A stretch of 23,943 bases of DNA, from positions 1 through 23,943 of the IMG/VR virus record IMGVR_UViG_3300005077_000747. One strand, given 5' to 3'. Within the stretch, counting starts at the first letter, position 1. Each line of letters starts with the position of its first letter. Source of the stretch: a virus. Of this stretch, positions 11,345 through 18,243 are shown in pieces. The position numbers and the translations under genes were made by a program. The notes below the pieces were generated by a model. It searched no databases, was not told the origin of the DNA, and was given only the letters and a program-made list of their open reading frames with translations.

Positions 11345-12136
11345 TTATCTCTCACCAACTATCTTAAGGTAAGGGTCTTCCAACTTCTGTTTTACAATTT
11401 CAACAATTTTATCTTTTTCGGGTCTAACTAAATCGGTAACTAAAGGATTGAAATCCCCGAAGAATAGAAAAGGTGAATTATGATCCCTCCATGGGTGTAC
11501 CGCGAGGAGGGGCTTTTCAAGATAAAAAGTTAGGCATGCGATCGCTGAATGAATTCCAATAGTTAAGCGAGATGCCGTGATCTTCCTTGCTACGTCAATG
11601 AAAGGGGCGCCTCGAAGGTCAAGTGAATTTGGGAATAAAATCTCGCGAGGTGCCCCTGCTGTATAAACGGTCAATCCAAACTGAGTCCAATCAACTTCTT
11701 CGACAGGCTTAATATTCTTCCACGAATGAATTGTTTGGGGATGCACAACCAGACTCTCTTCTAGCTCCCCTTTAAGAATTTCTCGGTTGCGGAGACTAAT
11801 ATCATGCGACGCACCCGTCGCACAACATGTCCAGTCAAAAGTTTCGTATTCTCCAAAGTATTCAGCATCGGCTGTAATGGCGGCAAAAGCTTCTGAGTAC
11901 TTACGTCTAAAGCTTTCTCGCGTTTGAATACTATCTGGGGGTGAGGGGTCATCACGAACTTCAATTTGAATTGGGTAAAAGTTTGCGAGGAACTCAACCG
12001 CAGGTTTCATGTACGACCCACACATCCAAACAATGCTTTTAACGTCATCAGTGCAAATTCGGTTGAGTAAAGGGATACAATGAAATGTATCCCCCAGCAT
12101 GACGCCCCCTAACAGGAGTTTAATCGTTTTTTCCAT
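11345..12136 (-). CDS. Glycosyltransferase family 9-like (heptosyltransferase fold).
   Basis: N-terminus LLLGGVMLGDTFHCIPLL and C-terminal LDLRGAPFIDVARKITASRLTIGIHSAIACLTFYLEKPLLAV match GT9 patterns (SLGD ... L-x-G ... IG-x-DSGP-x-HLAAA). Confidence 0.6.
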   Translation of the reverse strand: MEKTIKLLLGGVMLGDTFHCIPLLNRICTDDVKSIVWMCGSYMKPAVEFLANFYPIQIEVRDDPSPPDSIQTRESFRRKYSEAFAAITADAEYFGEYETFDWTCCATGASHDISLRNREILKGELEESLVVHPQTIHSWKNIKPVEEVDWTQFGLTVYTAGAPREILFPNSLDLRGAPFIDVARKITASRLTIGIHSAIACLTFYLEKPLLAVHPWRDHNSPFLFFGDFNPLVTDLVRPEKDKIVEIVKQKLEDPYLKIVGER

Positions 12137-13001
12137 CTAAATCTCCGTCATACTCCCAAGTAAAATCTCGGCCAAGCAAATCCGAAAGTTCCCGATTGAG
12201 GGGCCTAAAGTAATCGTAAAGCTTAAGAGCTGTCTCAGGACTTAGTTCTGGCGCAGGCCATTGACCGTGTTTGCTTCCTTTAATAGCATATGCGTCCCAC
12301 CAATGATCCAGACGATCAAATTCATATTTTTCAACACCGATGAAATCACAAACTTGATCGAGAATGGCCTGAGGGCTCACAAAGAAATCCTCACTCTTAA
12401 TAATTAAGAACTGTTCTGGAGGAAACCACCTAAACCAATTCTTGAGGTGGGTAACGTACTTACCTCTTTCCAAATATGGGTACAATTGATAATTTTCGAT
12501 GGGGGCTGATTTACTTGTAAACATTGTAAACATACCCCCATGCAGTCGTTCATTTTCTAATTCGACCGCTTCCTCAAATGTTTTAACCGTTTCATTACCA
12601 TCTTTAACAACCAGCCAGAAGTTTTCATGAGCACGCTTTACTGGATCCCGAAGCATTGCAATAAACTTTTGAGCTGGGTTAATATTCCAAACTCGGGAAG
12701 GACATTTGGGGTGACTAAGATCACCTGTAGAGCCTTCAATATTGAAAGTTCCTTGGGGGTGGGTGTGTACTTCCTTAAAGCTATGTAGTGAAGATTCACC
12801 ACGCCAGTTCCAAGAAAGAGCCCAAGATTCCTTGAGTAGATCTTTGGGATAGAATTTAGGGTGCCTTCTTAGATTGTAATAAAGTGATGATGTCCCTCCT
12901 CGAGGGGTGCCAATTATCATTGCTTCTGGGAGAAAAATATTTGAATCCGTTGGTTCAAATATTTGAGAATACCTAGGTTTCATTAACTCCTTCTTACTCA
13001 T
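12120..13001 (-). CDS. PAPS-dependent sulfotransferase.
   Basis: The 5'-PSB-like motif is IIGTPRGGTSSL. The 3'-PB-like motif is MLRDPVKRAHENFW. Confidence 0.72.
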   Translation of the reverse strand: MSKKELMKPRYSQIFEPTDSNIFLPEAMIIGTPRGGTSSLYYNLRRHPKFYPKDLLKESWALSWNWRGESSLHSFKEVHTHPQGTFNIEGSTGDLSHPKCPSRVWNINPAQKFIAMLRDPVKRAHENFWLVVKDGNETVKTFEEAVELENERLHGGMFTMFTSKSAPIENYQLYPYLERGKYVTHLKNWFRWFPPEQFLIIKSEDFFVSPQAILDQVCDFIGVEKYEFDRLDHWWDAYAIKGSKHGQWPAPELSPETALKLYDYFRPLNRELSDLLGRDFTWEYDGDLDGKND

Positions 13002-13002
13002 T

Positions 13003-16605: not shown

Positions 16606-17160
16606 TTATAAAATAAGATTTTCAGCTTTGTAAACCGAGACAATTTCAGGAGCTGATAAGATCGGAGCGTGAGATCGATCTACAAGTACGACCCACTTTG
16701 AAACGGTGCAGTTTCGAATCTCTTTAAGAGCATTTGTAGCAACTCTTAAATTACCTCCAGTACTCAAAACATCGTCTACGAGTACGACTTCTCTATCATG
16801 AATCGAGCTATTCCCTTCAATCCTACTGCAAAGCCCATGAGTCTTTTTTTCAGTTCGAACTATCAGCCCTGACACTTCTTTAGGGCAAAAGGTGAGCATT
16901 GCAGAAATCAAGAGGGATCCGCTATATCCAATACCTGCAATGACATCTTGCTTAGCACCAATTAAGCACCACAGTCTCCCAGCAATCTCATGTAAGATTA
17001 TCGAATTGAGGAGGAGGGGCTTAATATCAAAATAATAATTAGATACGCCTCCTGAAGAGAGATCGAAATCGCCGTATTGAATATTTTGACGGATCGCATC
17101 CTCTACAAGGCTATAACTATTAGTCTTCTTCTTCGGGCTCAAGCTCTTCTGCCTCACCAT
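16606..17160 (-). CDS. Type I phosphoribosyltransferase, OPRT-like.
   Basis: The PRPP-binding motif is VVLVDDVLSTGGNL, with an OPRT-like upstream region. I moved the start to the internal ATG (complement of 17158-17160), which has a GGAGAGAG SD 7 nt upstream. The track start is 17232. Confidence 0.7.
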   Translation of the reverse strand: MVRQKSLSPKKKTNSYSLVEDAIRQNIQYGDFDLSSGGVSNYYFDIKPLLLNSIILHEIAGRLWCLIGAKQDVIAGIGYSGSLLISAMLTFCPKEVSGLIVRTEKKTHGLCSRIEGNSSIHDREVVLVDDVLSTGGNLRVATNALKEIRNCTVSKWVVLVDRSHAPILSAPEIVSVYKAENLIL

Positions 17161-17362
17161 CAACAAACTCTCTCCAAGAAATACGTTCATTGGAGAGAGT
17201 TTGTGTGGCGTGAAGTTCTGCAAGGTCAGCAAGGATTACTTCGACGTCGTCAAAGTATGTCGACTCGATAGCTTCAACAATAGCTTCGAGTAGATCGGTT
17301 AGCAGTTCTTCAGGATCTTCAAGACCCCTAACTATATCGTAAATTGCATCTGGATCAATCAT
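17120..17362 (-). CDS. Extremely acidic 80-aa protein with about 27 D/E, 4 R/H and no Lys. It is a candidate DNA-mimic or anti-restriction protein.
   Basis: The composition is read directly from the translation. Its start overlaps the upstream gene as ATGA, the classic coupling arrangement. Confidence 0.5.
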   Translation of the reverse strand: MIDPDAIYDIVRGLEDPEELLTDLLEAIVEAIESTYFDDVEVILADLAELHATQTLSNERISWREFVDGEAEELEPEEED

Positions 17363-18243
17363 GAGGGTAGTTCTCCTAATGGGCCATCTTGACGTAAGAG
17401 AGTTTTAAGTGGTTCAAGGGCGAAATCATAAACATGCAAACCCTTACTCGTGAAAGCGATGGGACCCGGGCTTATGTCGAGACTCGCAGCGACGTACTCG
17501 TTTAATAAGGTAATCCCGCCAAGATTTGTACAAAAACCAGAGAATAGATCCCACGACCTGAAGTACGCGTGAGTGAGTAATTCTCCGCCAACAATCTTGA
17601 AATCTAGTCCACGCAGACATGGAGAAGTACCTCTCTCAGCTTCAGTAGAGTAAGGACGGTCGTAGGCAAAATTAGAGTCAGGATTACCTACAGTGAGATA
17701 ACAATGGTTCGTTCCATGACCAGCTTCTTTGAAATGTTTTATCACCCATTCAATTGGTGTTATCTTGGATGATAAGTTTTTACTTGCTGCGTAGGTTAAC
17801 ATACGAGTATAGCGATGAATGAATCGAAGCTCGGGGTCAGAAGGATCATACTGCTCCAATAAATATTCGAGAGTAGCTAACCCTCCGTGAATACCTCGCC
17901 GAAATGCTTGGACATCTCCGTTGATCCAAGATGAATAACGGTACTCCTCTTCAGGGGCCAGATTAGGATCCATAAGATAGTTCGCGAAGTACTGGTCAAT
18001 TTCATGCTCTGAAGTTGGTGCGGGTACTGAAATTGCTTCGGGCATTATCGGAGTGAGCGGTCGAATGTGTGGATGATTAATAAATCCCGATACAAAATCG
18101 AATTCTAATCTATGAGTCCCTTCATATGAACCACGAGTAATTTTATAGTGGCGGCCGTGATTCCATACAAGATAGAGAGCTTGAAACCAAGCATCCCCTA
18201 TAGTCGTTGCCTTAAAAGAAATCGGTTGCCAATTTGTACTCAT
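17359..18243 (-). CDS. Thymidylate synthase-fold enzyme (ThyA, dCMP hydroxymethylase or dUMP hydroxymethylase family). It is a candidate pyrimidine hydroxymethylase.
   Basis: The nucleophile motif is SPCLRGLDF. YFRSWDLFSGFCTNLGGITLLNEYVAASL aligns with the ThyA segment [21 protein letters not shown]. The GTHRLE region aligns with RTGTG. Confidence 0.75.
   Translation of the reverse strand: MSTNWQPISFKATTIGDAWFQALYLVWNHGRHYKITRGSYEGTHRLEFDFVSGFINHPHIRPLTPIMPEAISVPAPTSEHEIDQYFANYLMDPNLAPEEEYRYSSWINGDVQAFRRGIHGGLATLEYLLEQYDPSDPELRFIHRYTRMLTYAASKNLSSKITPIEWVIKHFKEAGHGTNHCYLTVGNPDSNFAYDRPYSTEAERGTSPCLRGLDFKIVGGELLTHAYFRSWDLFSGFCTNLGGITLLNEYVAASLDISPGPIAFTSKGLHVYDFALEPLKTLLRQDGPLGELPS

What the first reader, a model, noticed from the sequence alone, without database searches (positions are those of the whole stretch)
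11345..18243. Contiguous cluster of a ThyA-fold hydroxymethylase, a PRTase, three SAM methyltransferases, GT2/GT4/GT9 glycosyltransferases and a sulfotransferase, in a phage-like replication module
Eleven translationally coupled genes sit in one block. They are a TS-fold enzyme with a PCL nucleophile motif (17359-18243), an OPRT-like PRTase, an acidic 80-aa protein, a TylF-like O-MTase with a Zn ribbon, a GT2, a CmcI-like sugar O-MTase, a class I MTase, a GT4, a PAPS sulfotransferase and a GT9. The combination of methylated-sugar O-MTases and a sulfotransferase is familiar from sulfated glycolipid pathways. Here it is embedded between SbcCD and resolvase/PolA/DpdA/QueD genes. TS-fold hydroxymethylases that make 5-hm pyrimidines are the entry point for glycosylated and hypermodified phage DNA. 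A sulfated or methylated sugar decoration of DNA, or a PRTase-built nucleotide conjugate, would be previously undescribed. The alternative is modification of a host or virion surface glycan.
Basis: inference. Interest (0 to 1): 0.78.

Follow-up and report, generated by a model that had tools for sequence, protein, structure and literature searches.

The report
Phage thymidylate-synthase-linked sugar-decoration gene block
An uncultured phage carries, next to a divergent thymidylate-synthase-like gene in its DNA-replication region, a tightly packed set of sugar-adding, sugar-methylating and sulfating enzymes that most likely decorate its DNA with an unusual glycan, although decoration of virion proteins or of a host glycan is not excluded.

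Summary
Ten co-directional genes with overlapping or near-abutting junctions (11345-18243, minus strand) encode a TS-fold enzyme, an acidic 80-aa protein, an OPRT-like PRTase, three SAM methyltransferases, GT2, GT4, a PAPS-type sulfotransferase and a compact GT9-like enzyme. The last was confirmed only by structure prediction.

The PRTase is best read as a PyrE-type pyrimidine-supply gene. Relatives add OMP decarboxylase, or place dCTP deaminase next to the TS gene, so a "PRTase-built conjugate" is unlikely.

The TS-fold protein belongs to a large TS family seen only in uncultured phages. It is uracil-specific (Asn at the N177 position, Asp169 kept), has Thr at L143 and lacks a C-terminal tail. 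These features fit a dUMP hydroxymethylase but do not prove one.

Across 76 related loci most family members sit in ordinary nucleotide and replication modules. About five lineages have unrelated multi-GT clusters beside the TS gene. One different phage backbone shares only TS+GT2+MTs+GT4 with the window.

My best reading is a thymidine-type DNA glycan hypermodification with methyl and sulfate tailoring (about 0.45). The main rival is virion or host glycan decoration (about 0.33). It would be a new variant of a known kind. LC-MS of virion DNA is decisive.

The parts
18470..18712 (-). 80-aa small protein with a C-terminal CxxC. Conserved upstream partner of the TS gene.
   Evidence: ORF. It overlaps the next gene by 1 nt. 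Identity in L001, L004, L006, L009 and L089 is 38-63%. No family hit.
18240..18470 (-). 76-aa basic protein (pI 9.8), coupled to the TS gene.
   Evidence: Conserved in L004, L006 and L009 at 49-64%. No PHROG hit.
17359..18243 (-). TS-fold enzyme of a TS family seen only in uncultured phages. Predicted uracil-nucleotide C5-modifying enzyme: candidate dUMP hydroxymethylase, or alternatively a plain thymidylate synthase.
   Evidence: PF00303 1.3e-7. TIGR03283 1.9e-17, below its cut-off. Model pLDDT 88 with TS/MilA fold matches. Conserved C209, R229-S-W-D232, N240, H270 and Y272; T206 sits at the L143 position. 872 homologues in metagenomes. None in 50,697 deposited phage records at E<=1e-5.
17120..17362 (-). 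Acidic 80-aa protein (pI 4.05) of unknown role. A DNA mimic or regulator is only a guess.
   Evidence: 31-48% identical in L001, L004, L006, L009 and L088. No significant family hit.
16606..17160 (-). OPRT (PyrE)-like type I phosphoribosyltransferase, read as a pyrimidine nucleotide supply gene. The longest ORF starts at 17232; the likely start is the ATG at 17160.
   Evidence: PF00156 1.3e-8. TIGR00336 pyrE 3.4e-23, below its cut-off. PDB OPRTs 2p1z and 2yzk at about 2e-10. Cyanophage P-SSM2 pyrE homologues. An OMP decarboxylase gene lies nearby in L088 and L089. Start candidates are listed.
16605..16634 (-). Sigma-70-like promoter match (TTTACA-18-TATAAT, 11 of 12) at the only non-overlapping junction, just upstream of MT24. 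Possibly a separate transcription start for the glycan genes.
   Evidence: This is a consensus match only; the total number of promoter-like sites in the region is not clearly above the shuffles.
15822..16592 (-). TylF/MeT1-type (Methyltransf_24) SAM O-methyltransferase with an N-terminal CxxC...CxxC.
   Evidence: PF13578 1.3e-17. phrog_2675 6e-19. Orthologues in L001, L004, L009, L088, L089 and L010.
15145..15822 (-). GT2 (GT-A fold) glycosyltransferase with a DDD motif.
   Evidence: PF00535 1.1e-22. Weak hits to TAGT PF20691 (0.022) and to phrog_842, beta-glucosyl-HMC-alpha-glucosyltransferase (1.6e-5). Orthologues at 46-72% in L001, L004, L009, L088, L089 and L010.
14516..15148 (-). CmcI/rhamnosyl-type sugar O-methyltransferase.
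   Evidence: PF04989 4.6e-56. NF045824 5.6e-42, below its cut-off. Orthologues in L001, L009, L088 and L089. No homologue in deposited phages.
13944..14516 (-). Class I SAM methyltransferase (Methyltransf_23/11).
   Evidence: PF13489 2.1e-15. The only orthologue found is in L088, at 56%.
13003..13947 (-). GT4 (GT-B fold) glycosyltransferase, one of the most widely conserved GTs of the block. An orthologue of this gene is found in every fetched relative that carries the block except L006, whose GT4 gene is not detectably similar to it.
   Evidence: PF00534 6.8e-10. An E-x7-E motif is visible in the sequence. 55-70% identical in L001, L004, L009, L088, L089 and L010.
12120..13001 (-). PAPS-type sulfotransferase. 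A rare add-on to the block.
   Evidence: PF13469 6.3e-10 and PF00685 2.4e-9. 5'-PSB-like TPRGGTSS and 3'-PB-like RDPVKR motifs are visible in the sequence. Only three close homologues (60-61%); one lies in the syntenic contig L088, and a second is listed from a 3,570-bp contig of the same length and source as one that holds a GT9-like homologue. The rest are cellular-type homologues at <=40%.
11345..12136 (-). Compact GT9-like (heptosyltransferase-fold) GT-B enzyme. In relatives it is fused to an N-terminal methyltransferase.
   Evidence: No Pfam, PHROG or NCBIfam hit. Model pLDDT 90. Foldseek top hits are GT9 3tov, WaaC and TibC (E 4.5e-7, TM 0.6). hhalign to the GT9 gene of L007 gives 44% probability. 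Only 11 homologues, three of them MT fusions.
11138..11341 (-). Conserved 67-aa ORF that closes the coupled array.
   Evidence: 3-nt gap to the GT9-like gene. 51-62% identical in L001, L004, L009 and L088.
10175..11029 (-). Papain-family (C1) cysteine peptidase that travels with the glycan genes. Role unknown.
   Evidence: PF00112 9.6e-14. Present next to the block in L001, L009 and L088. In L089 it lies between the PRTase and MT24 genes.

Best explanation
The block is a phage DNA-hypermodification pathway of the 'TS homologue plus glycosyltransferases' kind, acting on a thymidine-type base.

Proposed steps:
1. The OPRT-like PRTase raises the uracil-nucleotide pool. Relatives add OMP decarboxylase, or carry dCTP deaminase next to the TS gene. 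This role is inferred from homology and from the neighbours in relatives.
2. The TS-fold enzyme adds its Cys209 to C6 of dUMP and transfers a one-carbon unit to C5. The polar Thr at the L143 position and the missing C-terminal tail would let water quench the exocyclic methylene, giving 5-hydroxymethyl-dUMP rather than dTMP. Uracil specificity is supported by residues. The product is inferred.
3. The phage UDG-domain-fused PolA incorporates the modified nucleotide after phosphorylation. This step is inferred.
4. After replication the soluble GT4, GT2 and GT9-like enzymes build a short glycan on the hydroxyl. Three O-methyltransferases and the PAPS sulfotransferase tailor the sugars. The enzyme classes are shown; the acceptor is inferred.

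The rapidly changing tail of the cassette among close relatives fits an arms race with nucleases that recognise modified DNA.
For: - Gene identities and coupling.
- Uracil-type active site: C209, RSWD with Asp169 kept, N240 equivalent to N177, and T206 at L143. The meaning of these positions comes from PMC13326640 and PMC6400193.
- The block lies between DpdA-like/PolA/QueD/resolvase and SbcCD/FolE2, on the same strand.
- The same TS family sits beside unrelated multi-GT clusters in about five lineages. These are the window type; L007/L008 (GT7C, GT9, GT2, Caps_synth and, in L007, a pyruvyl transferase, with dCTP deaminase next to TS); L018; L015; and L064/L073/L074. In L074 the TS gene lies between two genes matching PF20706 GT4-conflict, with more GT2 genes, an oxidoreductase and an acetyltransferase.
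- GT gene density falls from 6.2 per 100 kb within 2 kb of TS to 1.0 per 100 kb at 8-10 kb.
- L010 has a different backbone (QueC, RecA, terminase). It shares only TS, GT2, MT24, MT11 and GT4 with the window lineage.
- All block proteins are soluble, with no flippase, polymerase or lipid-carrier transferase.
- No DHFR gene lies within 10 kb in any of the 88 sequences searched, the window and 87 related loci. This is weak evidence.
- Literature precedent: GT gene clusters near thymidylate-synthase homologues are common in metaviromes (10.1101/2023.12.21.572611). Oligosaccharide-modified thymidines occur in SP-15, YerA41 and Carin-5, which also have UDG-PolA fusions (PMC12686479).
Against: - About 80% of loci with this TS family have no GT nearby. 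They sit among RNR, RecA, gp32 and SbcCD genes, as an ordinary thymidylate synthase would.
- Active-site motifs do not differ between GT-linked and unlinked members.
- The closest curated family is a methanogen thymidylate synthase.
- Fold searches do not separate TS from hydroxymethylases.
- In L089 the glycan genes are 50-68% identical to the window's but the TS gene only 24%, so the two do not strictly co-evolve.
- The only non-overlapping junction, with a strong promoter-like site, separates TS/PRTase from the glycan genes.
- A papain-like peptidase travels with the glycan genes.
- The enzymes are acidic (pI 5.4-6.2).
- I found no report of sugar O-methylation or sulfation on DNA. Both are typical of glycolipids, glycoproteins and polysaccharides.
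- The GT seeds used for the census came from TS-proximal clusters, which biases.
Confidence: 0.45

Rival explanations
1. There are two unrelated neighbours. TS, the acidic protein and the PRTase are ordinary pyrimidine-metabolism genes: a thymidylate synthase plus PyrE. The MT24-to-GT9 genes form a separate, mobile glycan cassette. That cassette decorates virion proteins, a cytoplasmic polysaccharide or a host envelope glycan intermediate with methylated, sulfated sugars.
For: - Most members of the TS family lack GT neighbours and sit in nucleotide-metabolism contexts.
- The PRTase is PyrE-like, with PyrF in relatives and a cyanophage pyrE precedent.
- The only intergenic gap and an 11/12 promoter match fall between the PRTase and MT24 genes.
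- The glycan genes are more conserved than TS and SbcCD between the window and L089.
- A C1 peptidase co-travels with the glycan genes.
- CmcI/TylF-type O-MTs and sulfotransferases are typical of glycolipid and polysaccharide pathways. One source names a homologue 'MMP 1-O-methyltransferase'.
- Cluster O mycobacteriophages carry an O-MT plus GT cluster proposed to modify capsids (PMC4351075).
- Cyanophages carry GT sets ascribed to cell-surface modification (PMC12801897).
Against: - The cassette is in the replication and DNA-modification module, not among structural genes as in Corndog.
- There are no membrane, flippase or lipid-carrier genes.
- Different GT sets have been recruited repeatedly and independently next to the same TS family. 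In L074 the TS gene is sandwiched between GT4 genes.
- L010 keeps the TS gene with the same GT and MT genes on another backbone.
Confidence: 0.33
2. The glycan is attached to a 7-deazaguanine base (for example a preQ1-type side chain) inserted by the DpdA-like enzyme, not to a pyrimidine. The TS gene is a bystander.
For: - The block lies between DpdA-like/QueD and FolE2.
- L010 has QueC just after its TS gene.
- L001 has a formyltransferase upstream.
- From my own knowledge, not checked here: glycosylated queuosine exists in eukaryotic tRNA.
Against: - L007, L008, L018 and L074 show TS plus GT clusters with no 7-deazaguanine gene in the 20 kb read.
- L048 and L086 carry 7-deazaguanine-type genes near the TS gene, and no GT was detected there by the seed profiles.
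- My searches returned no paper reporting a glycosylated 7-deazaguanine in DNA.
Confidence: 0.07
3. The block makes a free modified nucleotide or nucleoside glycoconjugate, of the mildiomycin or SP-15 precursor type. The TS-fold enzyme and the PRTase would build a C5-substituted pyrimidine nucleotide, which is then glycosylated before incorporation or released as a small molecule.
For: - MilA, a CMP hydroxymethylase of a nucleoside-antibiotic pathway, is the top PDB fold hit.
- Radical SAM genes occur in the cassettes of L004, L006 and L010.
- The SP-15 side chain derives from ribose and is made at the nucleotide level, according to titles cited in PMC5977210.
Against: - MilA is no closer than ordinary TS (TM about 0.5 for both).
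- The PRTase pairs with OMP decarboxylase in relatives, which gives a standard UMP-synthase logic.
- There are no reductase or dehydratase genes in the window block.
- Homologues of this PRTase in deposited phage records are mainly in cyanophages, marine virus contigs and two Acinetobacter phage records, and none is in SP-15, YerA41 or Carin-5.
Confidence: 0.05

Closest known systems
T-even phage glucosyl-hydroxymethylcytosine system (dCMP hydroxymethylase gp42 plus alpha/beta-glucosyltransferases)
   Same: A TS-fold enzyme is proposed to make a hydroxymethyl pyrimidine nucleotide before replication, and soluble GTs glycosylate it afterwards. The enzyme lacks the TS C-terminal tail and has a polar residue at the L143 position, as T4 dCH does (PMC6400193).
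   Different: The window enzyme has Asn at the N177 position (uracil type) where dCH has Asp. It is about 15% identical to viral dCH models. The GTs are GT2, GT4 and GT9-like rather than the T4 enzymes. Three O-MTs and a sulfotransferase have no counterpart.
Glycosylated 5-hydroxycytosine pathways of RB69, DLP3 and RL38JI (TS-homologue 5hodCMP synthase plus arabinosyl or hexosyl transferases; PMC13326640)
   Same: A TS homologue is clustered with several DNA glycosyltransferases and sugar-supply genes. Mono- to tri-saccharide chains are built on DNA, and cassettes vary between relatives.
   Different: The diagnostic D169N and N177D substitutions are both absent here. The product cannot be 5hoC by that signature. 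That paper mentions no methyl or sulfate tailoring.
Oligosaccharide-hypermodified thymidines of SP-15, YerA41 and Carin-5 (PMC12686479, PMC5977210)
   Same: A thymidine-type base carries a multi-sugar, anionic (phosphate there) decoration. A GT and sugar-modification gene block lies near a PolA with an N-terminal UDG-like domain. A TS homologue and dCTP or dCMP deaminase are present.
   Different: There is no detectable sequence relationship of TS, PRTase or CmcI to those phages. PolA is only about 25% identical to any deposited phage. Nothing indicates a pentyl linker. The anionic group would be sulfate rather than phosphate.
Metavirome MT/5mYOX(TET)- and ThyS-associated glycosyltransferase gene clusters (Pyle et al., 10.1101/2023.12.21.572611; Burke et al., PMC8256090)
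   Same: GT-A and GT-B enzymes related to LPS or teichoic-acid enzymes sit next to a base-activating enzyme. That survey noted ThyS association. Heptose and other sugars were found on DNA bases.
   Different: Those characterised clusters act on 5hmC made after replication. The GT2 here matches TAGT only at E=0.022. That paper does not mention O-methyltransferases or sulfotransferases on DNA glycans.
Base J (JBP hydroxylase plus JGT glucosyltransferase) of kinetoplastids
   Same: If the proposal is right, the end product class is the same: a sugar on 5-hydroxymethyluracil in DNA.
   Different: Base J is made by oxidising thymine in DNA, not by a TS-fold enzyme on a nucleotide. It carries a single unmodified glucose. 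No homology was tested here.
Mycobacteriophage Cluster O O-methyltransferase/glycosyltransferase genes (Corndog gp35-38; PMC4351075), proposed to modify capsids
   Same: A soluble O-MT plus several GTs in a tailed phage, with methylated glycans expected.
   Different: [quoted passage not shown] The window block lies in the replication and DNA-modification module beside a TS-fold gene.
Cyanophage pyrE auxiliary metabolic gene (P-SSM2, P-SSM5, P-SSM7)
   Same: A phage-encoded OPRT-like PRTase, 27-30% identical to the window PRTase, read as pyrimidine supply.
   Different: In the window lineage it is fixed next to the TS-fold gene and an acidic small protein. It scores below the pyrE equivalog cut-off (82 against 107 bits).

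Membership tests
Thymidylate synthase / pyrimidine hydroxymethylase superfamily (PF00303) | TS alpha/beta fold | tested here: met
   Model pLDDT 88, pTM 0.84. 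Foldseek probability 1.0 to many TS and MilA chains, TM about 0.5.
Thymidylate synthase / pyrimidine hydroxymethylase superfamily (PF00303) | Catalytic Cys (C146) and the R166-S167-x-D169, H207 and Y209 motif; Pfam gathering score | tested here: met
   C209, R229-S230-W231-D232, H270 and Y272 are conserved in 74-75 of 76 family members. 31.5 bits against a cut-off of 24.3.
Methanogen-type thymidylate synthase (TIGR03283 equivalog) | Score at or above the curated cut-off (174.55 bits) | tested here: not met
   63.5 bits, E 1.9e-17, over the full length. It is the closest curated family, but the window protein is not a member.
dCMP hydroxymethylase (T4 gp42 type) | Asp at the N177 position (cytosine specificity) | tested here: not met
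   Asn240 is conserved in 75 of 76 family members. The criterion comes from PMC13326640.
5-hydroxy-dCMP synthase (RB69 gp48 type) | D169N together with N177D | tested here: not met
   Asp232 and Asn240 are retained.
dUMP hydroxymethylase (function) | Uracil specificity (Asn177), and loss of the bulky hydrophobic L143 and of the C-terminal tail that shield the methylene intermediate from water | tested here: inconclusive
   Asn240 is present. Thr206 aligns with L143. The protein ends 22 residues after Y272. The correlation is taken and was established for cytosine enzymes. The same residues occur in family members with no GT nearby.
dUMP hydroxymethylase (function) | Product is 5-hm-dUMP and THF, not dTMP and DHF | not testable with these tools
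   This needs an enzyme assay or an in vivo plasmid-nucleoside LC-MS. The only indirect hint is that no DHFR gene lies within 10 kb in any of the 88 sequences searched, the window and 87 related loci.
Orotate phosphoribosyltransferase (PyrE) | Type I PRTase PRPP-binding loop and the OPRT flexible catalytic loop | tested here: met
   VVLVDDVLSTGGN and RTEKKTHG align with the corresponding loops of OPRT structures 2p1z and 2yzk. The loop identities are from my own knowledge of OPRT.
Orotate phosphoribosyltransferase (PyrE) | Equivalog score (TIGR00336 cut-off 106.8 bits) | tested here: not met
   82.3 bits, E 3.4e-23. It is OPRT-like, and the base specificity is unproven.
Orotate phosphoribosyltransferase (PyrE) | Pathway partner OMP decarboxylase | tested here: inconclusive
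   Absent from the window. PF00215 genes lie in the syntenic relatives L088 and L089.
GT2 glycosyltransferase | Pfam PF00535 above the gathering score; DxD motif | tested here: met
   81.2 bits against a cut-off of 23.3. A DDD motif is in the sequence.
GT4 glycosyltransferase | Pfam PF00534 above the gathering score; E-x7-E motif | tested here: met
   39.2 bits against a cut-off of 26.4. EGNAYACLE is in the sequence.
GT9 (heptosyltransferase family) | Match to PF01075 | tested here: not met
   No Pfam hit at E<=0.1. hhalign to a PF01075 protein (L007) gives only 44% probability.
GT9 (heptosyltransferase family) | GT-B fold closest to GT9 structures | tested here: met
   The top Foldseek hits are 3tov (GT9), WaaC 6dfe/2h1h, TibC and WaaF, E 4.5e-7 to 1e-4, TM about 0.6.
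PAPS-dependent sulfotransferase | Pfam sulfotransferase domains above the gathering score; 5'-PSB and 3'-PB PAPS-binding motifs | tested here: met
   PF13469 40.1 bits against 27; PF00685 37.4 bits against 22. TPRGGTSS and RDPVKR are in the sequence. The motif definitions are from my own knowledge.
CmcI / rhamnosyl O-methyltransferase | PF04989 above the gathering score; equivalog NF045824 cut-off 400 bits | tested here: inconclusive
   Pfam 190.3 bits against 23.2, which is met. The NCBIfam equivalog scores 143.7 bits against 400, which is not met. It is a family member, but the sugar specificity is unknown.
Phage DNA glycan hypermodification gene cluster | A base-activating enzyme (TS homologue or 5mYOX) conserved next to glycosyltransferases across lineages | tested here: met
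Phage DNA glycan hypermodification gene cluster | Glycosylated nucleoside in virion DNA; GT activity on DNA | not testable with these tools
   This needs LC-MS/MS of virion DNA and in vitro GT assays.
Phage virion-glycosylation cluster (Corndog type) | GT and MT genes embedded in the structural module | tested here: not met
   The window block is flanked by replication, recombination and 7-deazaguanine genes. [quoted passage not shown]

The most novel reading that the evidence does not exclude
Virion DNA of this phage lineage carries two independent base modifications. One is a DpdA-inserted 7-deazaguanine. The other is a 5-hydroxymethyluracil-linked oligosaccharide that is O-methylated and, in this phage and L088, sulfated. 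That would be the first methylated or sulfated glycan reported on DNA. The TS-fold family found only in uncultured phages (more than 800 members) would then be a widespread family of dUMP hydroxymethylases.
Probability: 0.3. Interest if true: 0.85.

Novelty: new variant of a known kind. Interest (0 to 1): 0.68.

Why it matters
If DNA is the acceptor, this would extend known phage DNA chemistry. Plain hexose, pentose, heptose or HexNAc chains on cytosine derivatives would be joined by tailored (methylated, sulfated) glycans on a thymidine-type base.

It would identify a large, uncultured-phage-specific TS-fold family as the entry enzyme. It would also supply new DNA-acting GT, O-MT and sulfotransferase activities for biotechnology. 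Finally, it would explain how such phages evade restriction and type IV systems, in combination with 7-deazaguanine.

If the glycan goes elsewhere, the block is still a compact, mobile, fully soluble pathway for methylated and sulfated glycans in phages outside the Actinobacteria-phage precedent.

Tried and rejected
- DNA similarity of the block to 50,697 deposited phage records: no match.
- tblastn of the TS protein and of CmcI against the same records: no match. The GT2 gave only N-terminal generic GT hits. No cultured relative could be used.
- PolA places the phage far from all cultured phages, at about 25% identity.
- Fold searches of the TS model against PDB and BFVD: TS, MilA and dCMP hydroxymethylase are all equally distant, so the searches cannot decide the product.
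- I looked for active-site residues that separate GT-linked from GT-free family members. None is consistent; only the residue before Asn240 varies (T, V or I against E or A), and not in step with GT linkage.
- DHFR search in all loci: no hit, and only weakly informative.
- Pfam census of 150 otherwise unlabelled neighbour families: replication and recombination families, with no hidden GT family among the top 25.
- The PRTase as a DNA- or glycan-conjugating enzyme, or as the source of an SP-15-like ribose-derived side chain. I considered this because of the ribose-labelling titles cited. I rejected it as the main reading because of the OPRT loops, the cyanophage pyrE homologues and the OMP decarboxylase in relatives.
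- PDB sequence search for the DpdA-like ORF: nothing significant. The 'DpdA' label therefore rests on a weak DUF6610 hit, phrog_19058 and motif inspection.
- A profile of the GT9-like family against PDB sequences gave only spurious TPR hits. The structure prediction was needed.
- Rfam scan of the window: one tRNA-like element only.
- Literature searches for sulfated or O-methylated DNA glycans, or for directly glycosylated 5hmdU in phages, returned no such report.

Full report
**What is there**

The window is one co-directional (minus-strand) stretch of phage genes. In transcription order, from 18712 down to 11138, the coupled array reads:
- an 80-aa CxxC protein and a 76-aa basic protein;
- the TS-fold gene (17359-18243);
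- an acidic 80-aa protein (pI 4.05);
- an OPRT-like PRTase;
- a Methyltransf_24 enzyme with an N-terminal CxxC...CxxC;
- GT2;
- a CmcI/rhamnosyl-type O-MT;
- a Methyltransf_23 enzyme;
- GT4;
- a sulfotransferase;
- a 263-aa ORF with no family hit;
- a conserved 67-aa ORF.

Junctions overlap by 1-17 nt or leave 1-3 nt. The exception is a 13-nt gap between the PRTase and MT24 genes, where the best sigma-70-like match of the region lies (11 of 12).

Upstream are a PDDEXK resolvase, QueD, a PolA with an N-terminal UDG-like domain, and a DpdA-like ORF. Downstream are a papain-like peptidase, SbcD, SbcC and FolE2. The stated range holds ten genes, not eleven.

**The unannotated ORF**

The ORF at 11345-12136 has only 11 homologues in 5.8 billion proteins. 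Three of them are fused to an N-terminal methyltransferase.
- Its AlphaFold model (pLDDT 90) is a GT-B fold.
- The best PDB matches are GT9 enzymes: 3tov, WaaC, TibC and WaaF.
- Sequence-level support is weak: no PF01075 hit, and 44% hhalign probability against a neighbouring GT9 gene.

'GT9-like' is justified by fold only.

**The TS-fold enzyme**

The protein matches PF00303 only over its C-terminal third. It also matches the methanogen thymidylate-synthase equivalog TIGR03283 over its whole length, but far below the cut-off. The model (pLDDT 88) has the TS fold. It is equally distant (TM about 0.5, about 15% identity) from ordinary TS, MilA and viral dCMP hydroxymethylases.

The family is large. 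There are 872 hits at E<=1e-3 and 100 confirmed places in IMG/VR. It is absent from 50,697 deposited phage records at E<=1e-5.

The alignment to TS structures and a 76-member family alignment show the following:
- The catalytic Cys is present (C209).
- R-S-W-D is present, so Asp169 is kept.
- Asn240 sits at the N177 position.
- H270 and Y272 are present.
- Thr206 sits at the L143 position in the larger subgroup.
- The chain ends 22 residues after Y272, so there is no TS-type C-terminal tail.

By the criteria summarised in PMC13326640 and PMC6400193, the enzyme is uracil-specific. It is not a dCMP hydroxymethylase and not a 5-hydroxy-dCMP synthase. A polar residue at L143 and the missing tail fit a hydroxymethylase but were established for cytosine enzymes. 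They cannot exclude a plain, archaeal-like thymidylate synthase.

**The PRTase**

The closest families are OPRTs: TIGR00336 at 3.4e-23, and PDB entries 2p1z and 2yzk at about 2e-10. The PRPP loop and the flexible catalytic loop are intact.

Its homologues in deposited phage records are mainly cyanophage pyrE genes and unannotated marine virus contigs, plus two Acinetobacter phage records annotated as pyrE. Two syntenic relatives carry an OMP decarboxylase gene close by (L088, L089). Other lineages instead have dCTP deaminase next to the TS gene (L007, L008, L010).

All of these enzymes feed the uracil-nucleotide pool. I therefore read the PRTase as pyrimidine supply for the TS-fold enzyme.

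**Is the glycan cassette tied to the TS gene?**

*Close relatives.* L001/L003, L004/L005, L006, L009, L088 and L089 keep the frame [small ORFs]-TS-acidic-PRTase-[glycan genes]-SbcCD. An orthologue of the window's GT4 is detectable in all of these except L006. MT24 is detectable in all of them and GT2 in all but L006. The tail of the cassette varies:
- sulfotransferase plus GT9-like (window, L088);
- GT17 plus an MT-GT9 fusion (L001);
- TOD1, a second GT4, radical SAM, DUF2334 and an MT-GT9 fusion (L004), or TOD1, radical SAM, DUF2334 and methyltransferases with no detectable GT9-like part (L006).

The sulfotransferase is a rare add-on. It has three close homologues; one lies in the syntenic contig L088, and a second is listed from a 3,570-bp contig of the same length and source as one that holds a GT9-like homologue.

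*The family at large.* I examined 76 non-identical members with 10-kb flanks. Most lie among RNR, RecA, gp32, 5'-3' exonuclease, clamp-loader and SbcCD genes. My seed profiles found no GT nearby in most of them.

*GT-linked members.* Twelve members, falling into about five lineages, have two or more GT genes within 6 kb. The GT sets are unrelated to one another:
- L007 and L008 have GT7C, GT9 and GT2. L008 adds Caps_synth, and L007 adds a pyruvyl transferase.
- L018 has two GT4 genes, a GT2 and an epimerase.
- In L074 (and, by the seed profiles, L064 and L073) the TS gene sits directly between two GT4 genes. In L074 these match PF20706 'GT4 in conflict systems'. Three GT2 genes, a sugar oxidoreductase and an acetyltransferase follow.

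*Distance trend.* GT gene density falls from 6.2 per 100 kb within 2 kb of TS to 1.0 per 100 kb at 8-10 kb. The seed profiles came from TS-proximal clusters, so this number is biased upward.

*L010.* This locus is from a 116-kb contig with QueC, RecA and a terminase nearby. It shares only six of 30 ORFs with the window lineage: TS, two GT2 genes, MT24, MT11 and GT4.

*Counter-evidence:*
- Active-site motifs do not differ between GT-linked and GT-free members.
- In L089 the glycan genes are 50-68% identical to the window's, while TS is 24% and SbcCD about 36%.
- A papain-like peptidase travels with the glycan genes.

**Nature of the cassette**

All products are soluble, with no segment resembling a transmembrane helix. 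Their pI is 5.4-6.2. There is no flippase, polymerase, ligase or lipid-carrier transferase. That argues against a classic O-antigen or capsule conversion module and for a cytoplasmic acceptor: DNA, protein, or a soluble or inner-leaflet intermediate.

Catalytic motifs are intact and visible in the translations:
- DDD in GT2;
- E-x7-E in GT4;
- glycine-rich SAM-binding loops in MT24 and CmcI (recognised from my own knowledge of class I methyltransferases);
- PAPS motifs in the sulfotransferase;
- the PRPP loop in the PRTase.

**Comparison with what is known**

- TS homologues that create a hydroxyl handle for DNA glycans are established for T-even phages and for the 5-hydroxycytosine glycans of RB69, DLP3 and RL38JI.
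- A metavirome survey reported DNA-GT homologues frequently next to thymidylate-synthase homologues.
- Oligosaccharide-bearing thymidines exist in SP-15, YerA41 and Carin-5. In those phages a GT and sugar block lies near a UDG-domain PolA.
- The searches I ran returned no report of O-methylated or sulfated sugars on DNA.
- The rival has precedent too. Cluster O mycobacteriophages carry an O-MT plus GT genes proposed to modify capsids, but inside the structural module. Cyanophage GT sets are ascribed to cell-surface modification.

**Verdict**

| Reading | Confidence |
|---|---|
| Thymidine-type DNA glycan hypermodification: pyrimidine supply (PyrE-like), a uracil-specific TS-fold enzyme acting as dUMP hydroxymethylase, post-replicative GT4/GT2/GT9-like glycosylation, then methyl and sulfate tailoring | 0.45 |
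| Plain TS plus PyrE beside an independent mobile glycan cassette for virion proteins or a host or cytoplasmic glycan | 0.33 |
| Glycan attached to a 7-deazaguanine | 0.07 |
| Free nucleotide glycoconjugate | 0.05 |

Shown: the gene identities, the coupling, conservation of the frame, turnover of the cassette tail, and recurrent TS-GT proximity. Inferred: the TS product, the acceptor and the order of steps.

The case is a new variant of a known kind. It is worth an LC-MS experiment and a heterologous TS assay, which would settle it.

Noticed in passing
window 1341-1412 (-), next to 1442-2911 (-): A tRNA-like element (ARAGORN tRNA-Met CAT; Rfam tRNA 31.6 bits, just above the gathering score) lies about 30 nt downstream of a TROVE/Ro60-like gene (PF05731 9e-23, phrog_850). 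From my own knowledge, bacterial Ro60 genes are often next to Y RNAs with a tRNA-like module, so this may be a phage Y-RNA-like partner rather than a decoding tRNA. L089 also carries a TROVE gene.
   Followed up: partly
window 23231-23941, 20060-20455, 5122-6519 (all -); L010 10958-11677; L001 1741-2334: There is a 7-deazaguanine DNA-modification gene set: a DpdA-like ORF, QueD and FolE2. The DpdA-like ORF has only weak DUF6610 and phrog_19058 hits, TGT-like LDNSAFE, VVVPD and IVPQG motifs by eye, and no PDB sequence hit. Relatives add QueC (L010) or a formyltransferase (L001). QueC and QueE are not in the window. The phage probably modifies G as well.
   Followed up: partly
window 5122-6519 (-); L089 14729-16081: FolE2 (PF02649 over residues 205-456) has an N-terminal extension of about 200 aa with a weak LAGLIDADG_2 hit (2.2e-4). 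The relative L089 instead has a type I GTP cyclohydrolase interrupted by an intein/HNH. The GTP cyclohydrolase slot of this lineage seems prone to mobile-element insertions.
   Followed up: no
window 20812-23253 (-): PolA carries an N-terminal UDG-superfamily domain (PF03167 3.1e-17). Its motif A reads GIAPH rather than the family-4 GEAPG, while motif B (HPS) is kept. The domain may therefore be non-catalytic or have altered specificity. The motif knowledge is from memory. The Carin-5 paper links UDG-PolA fusions with hypermodified thymidine.
   Followed up: no
window 10175-11029 (-); L089 5736-6617; L088 7621-8487: A cytoplasmic papain-family C1 peptidase stays with the glycan genes even when its position changes: after the GT9-like gene in the window, and between the PRTase and MT24 genes in L089. 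No role for it is obvious in either a DNA or a glycan pathway.
   Followed up: partly
P0004 N-terminus; L089 3565-4377; window 15822-16592: A CPWCRE..P.P.C..C.GTG zinc-ribbon-like motif appears as an N-terminal extension in one TS homologue (P0004). It appears as an internal insertion in the divergent TS of L089. Other TS homologues carry Cys-rich insertions in the same variable loop. The MT24 enzyme also begins with CxxC...CxxC.
   Followed up: no
window 3656-4918 (-) and 9379-9735 (-): Three small ORFs with signal or lipoprotein-like N-termini (154, 140 and 147 aa) and a 118-aa lipoprotein-like ORF (LSGC lipobox) sit within the replication-side gene array. They may be superinfection-exclusion or envelope-acting proteins.
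   Followed up: no
L004 13324-13734; L089 1547-1993 and 11371-11970; L007 534-1511; L008 3569-4279: Homing-endonuclease-type genes (HNH, NUMOD3, GIY-YIG) are inserted inside or beside the glycan and TS clusters of several relatives. This fits these regions being recombination hot spots and may explain the cassette turnover.
   Followed up: no
L089 18784-19467: A YfbR-like HD-domain protein, a family that from my own knowledge includes 5'-deoxynucleotidases, is encoded near the block in the 188-kb relative. An enzyme of this kind could deplete a canonical dNMP pool, as dTMP-depleting enzymes do in hmU phages. No counterpart was seen in the window.
   Followed up: no
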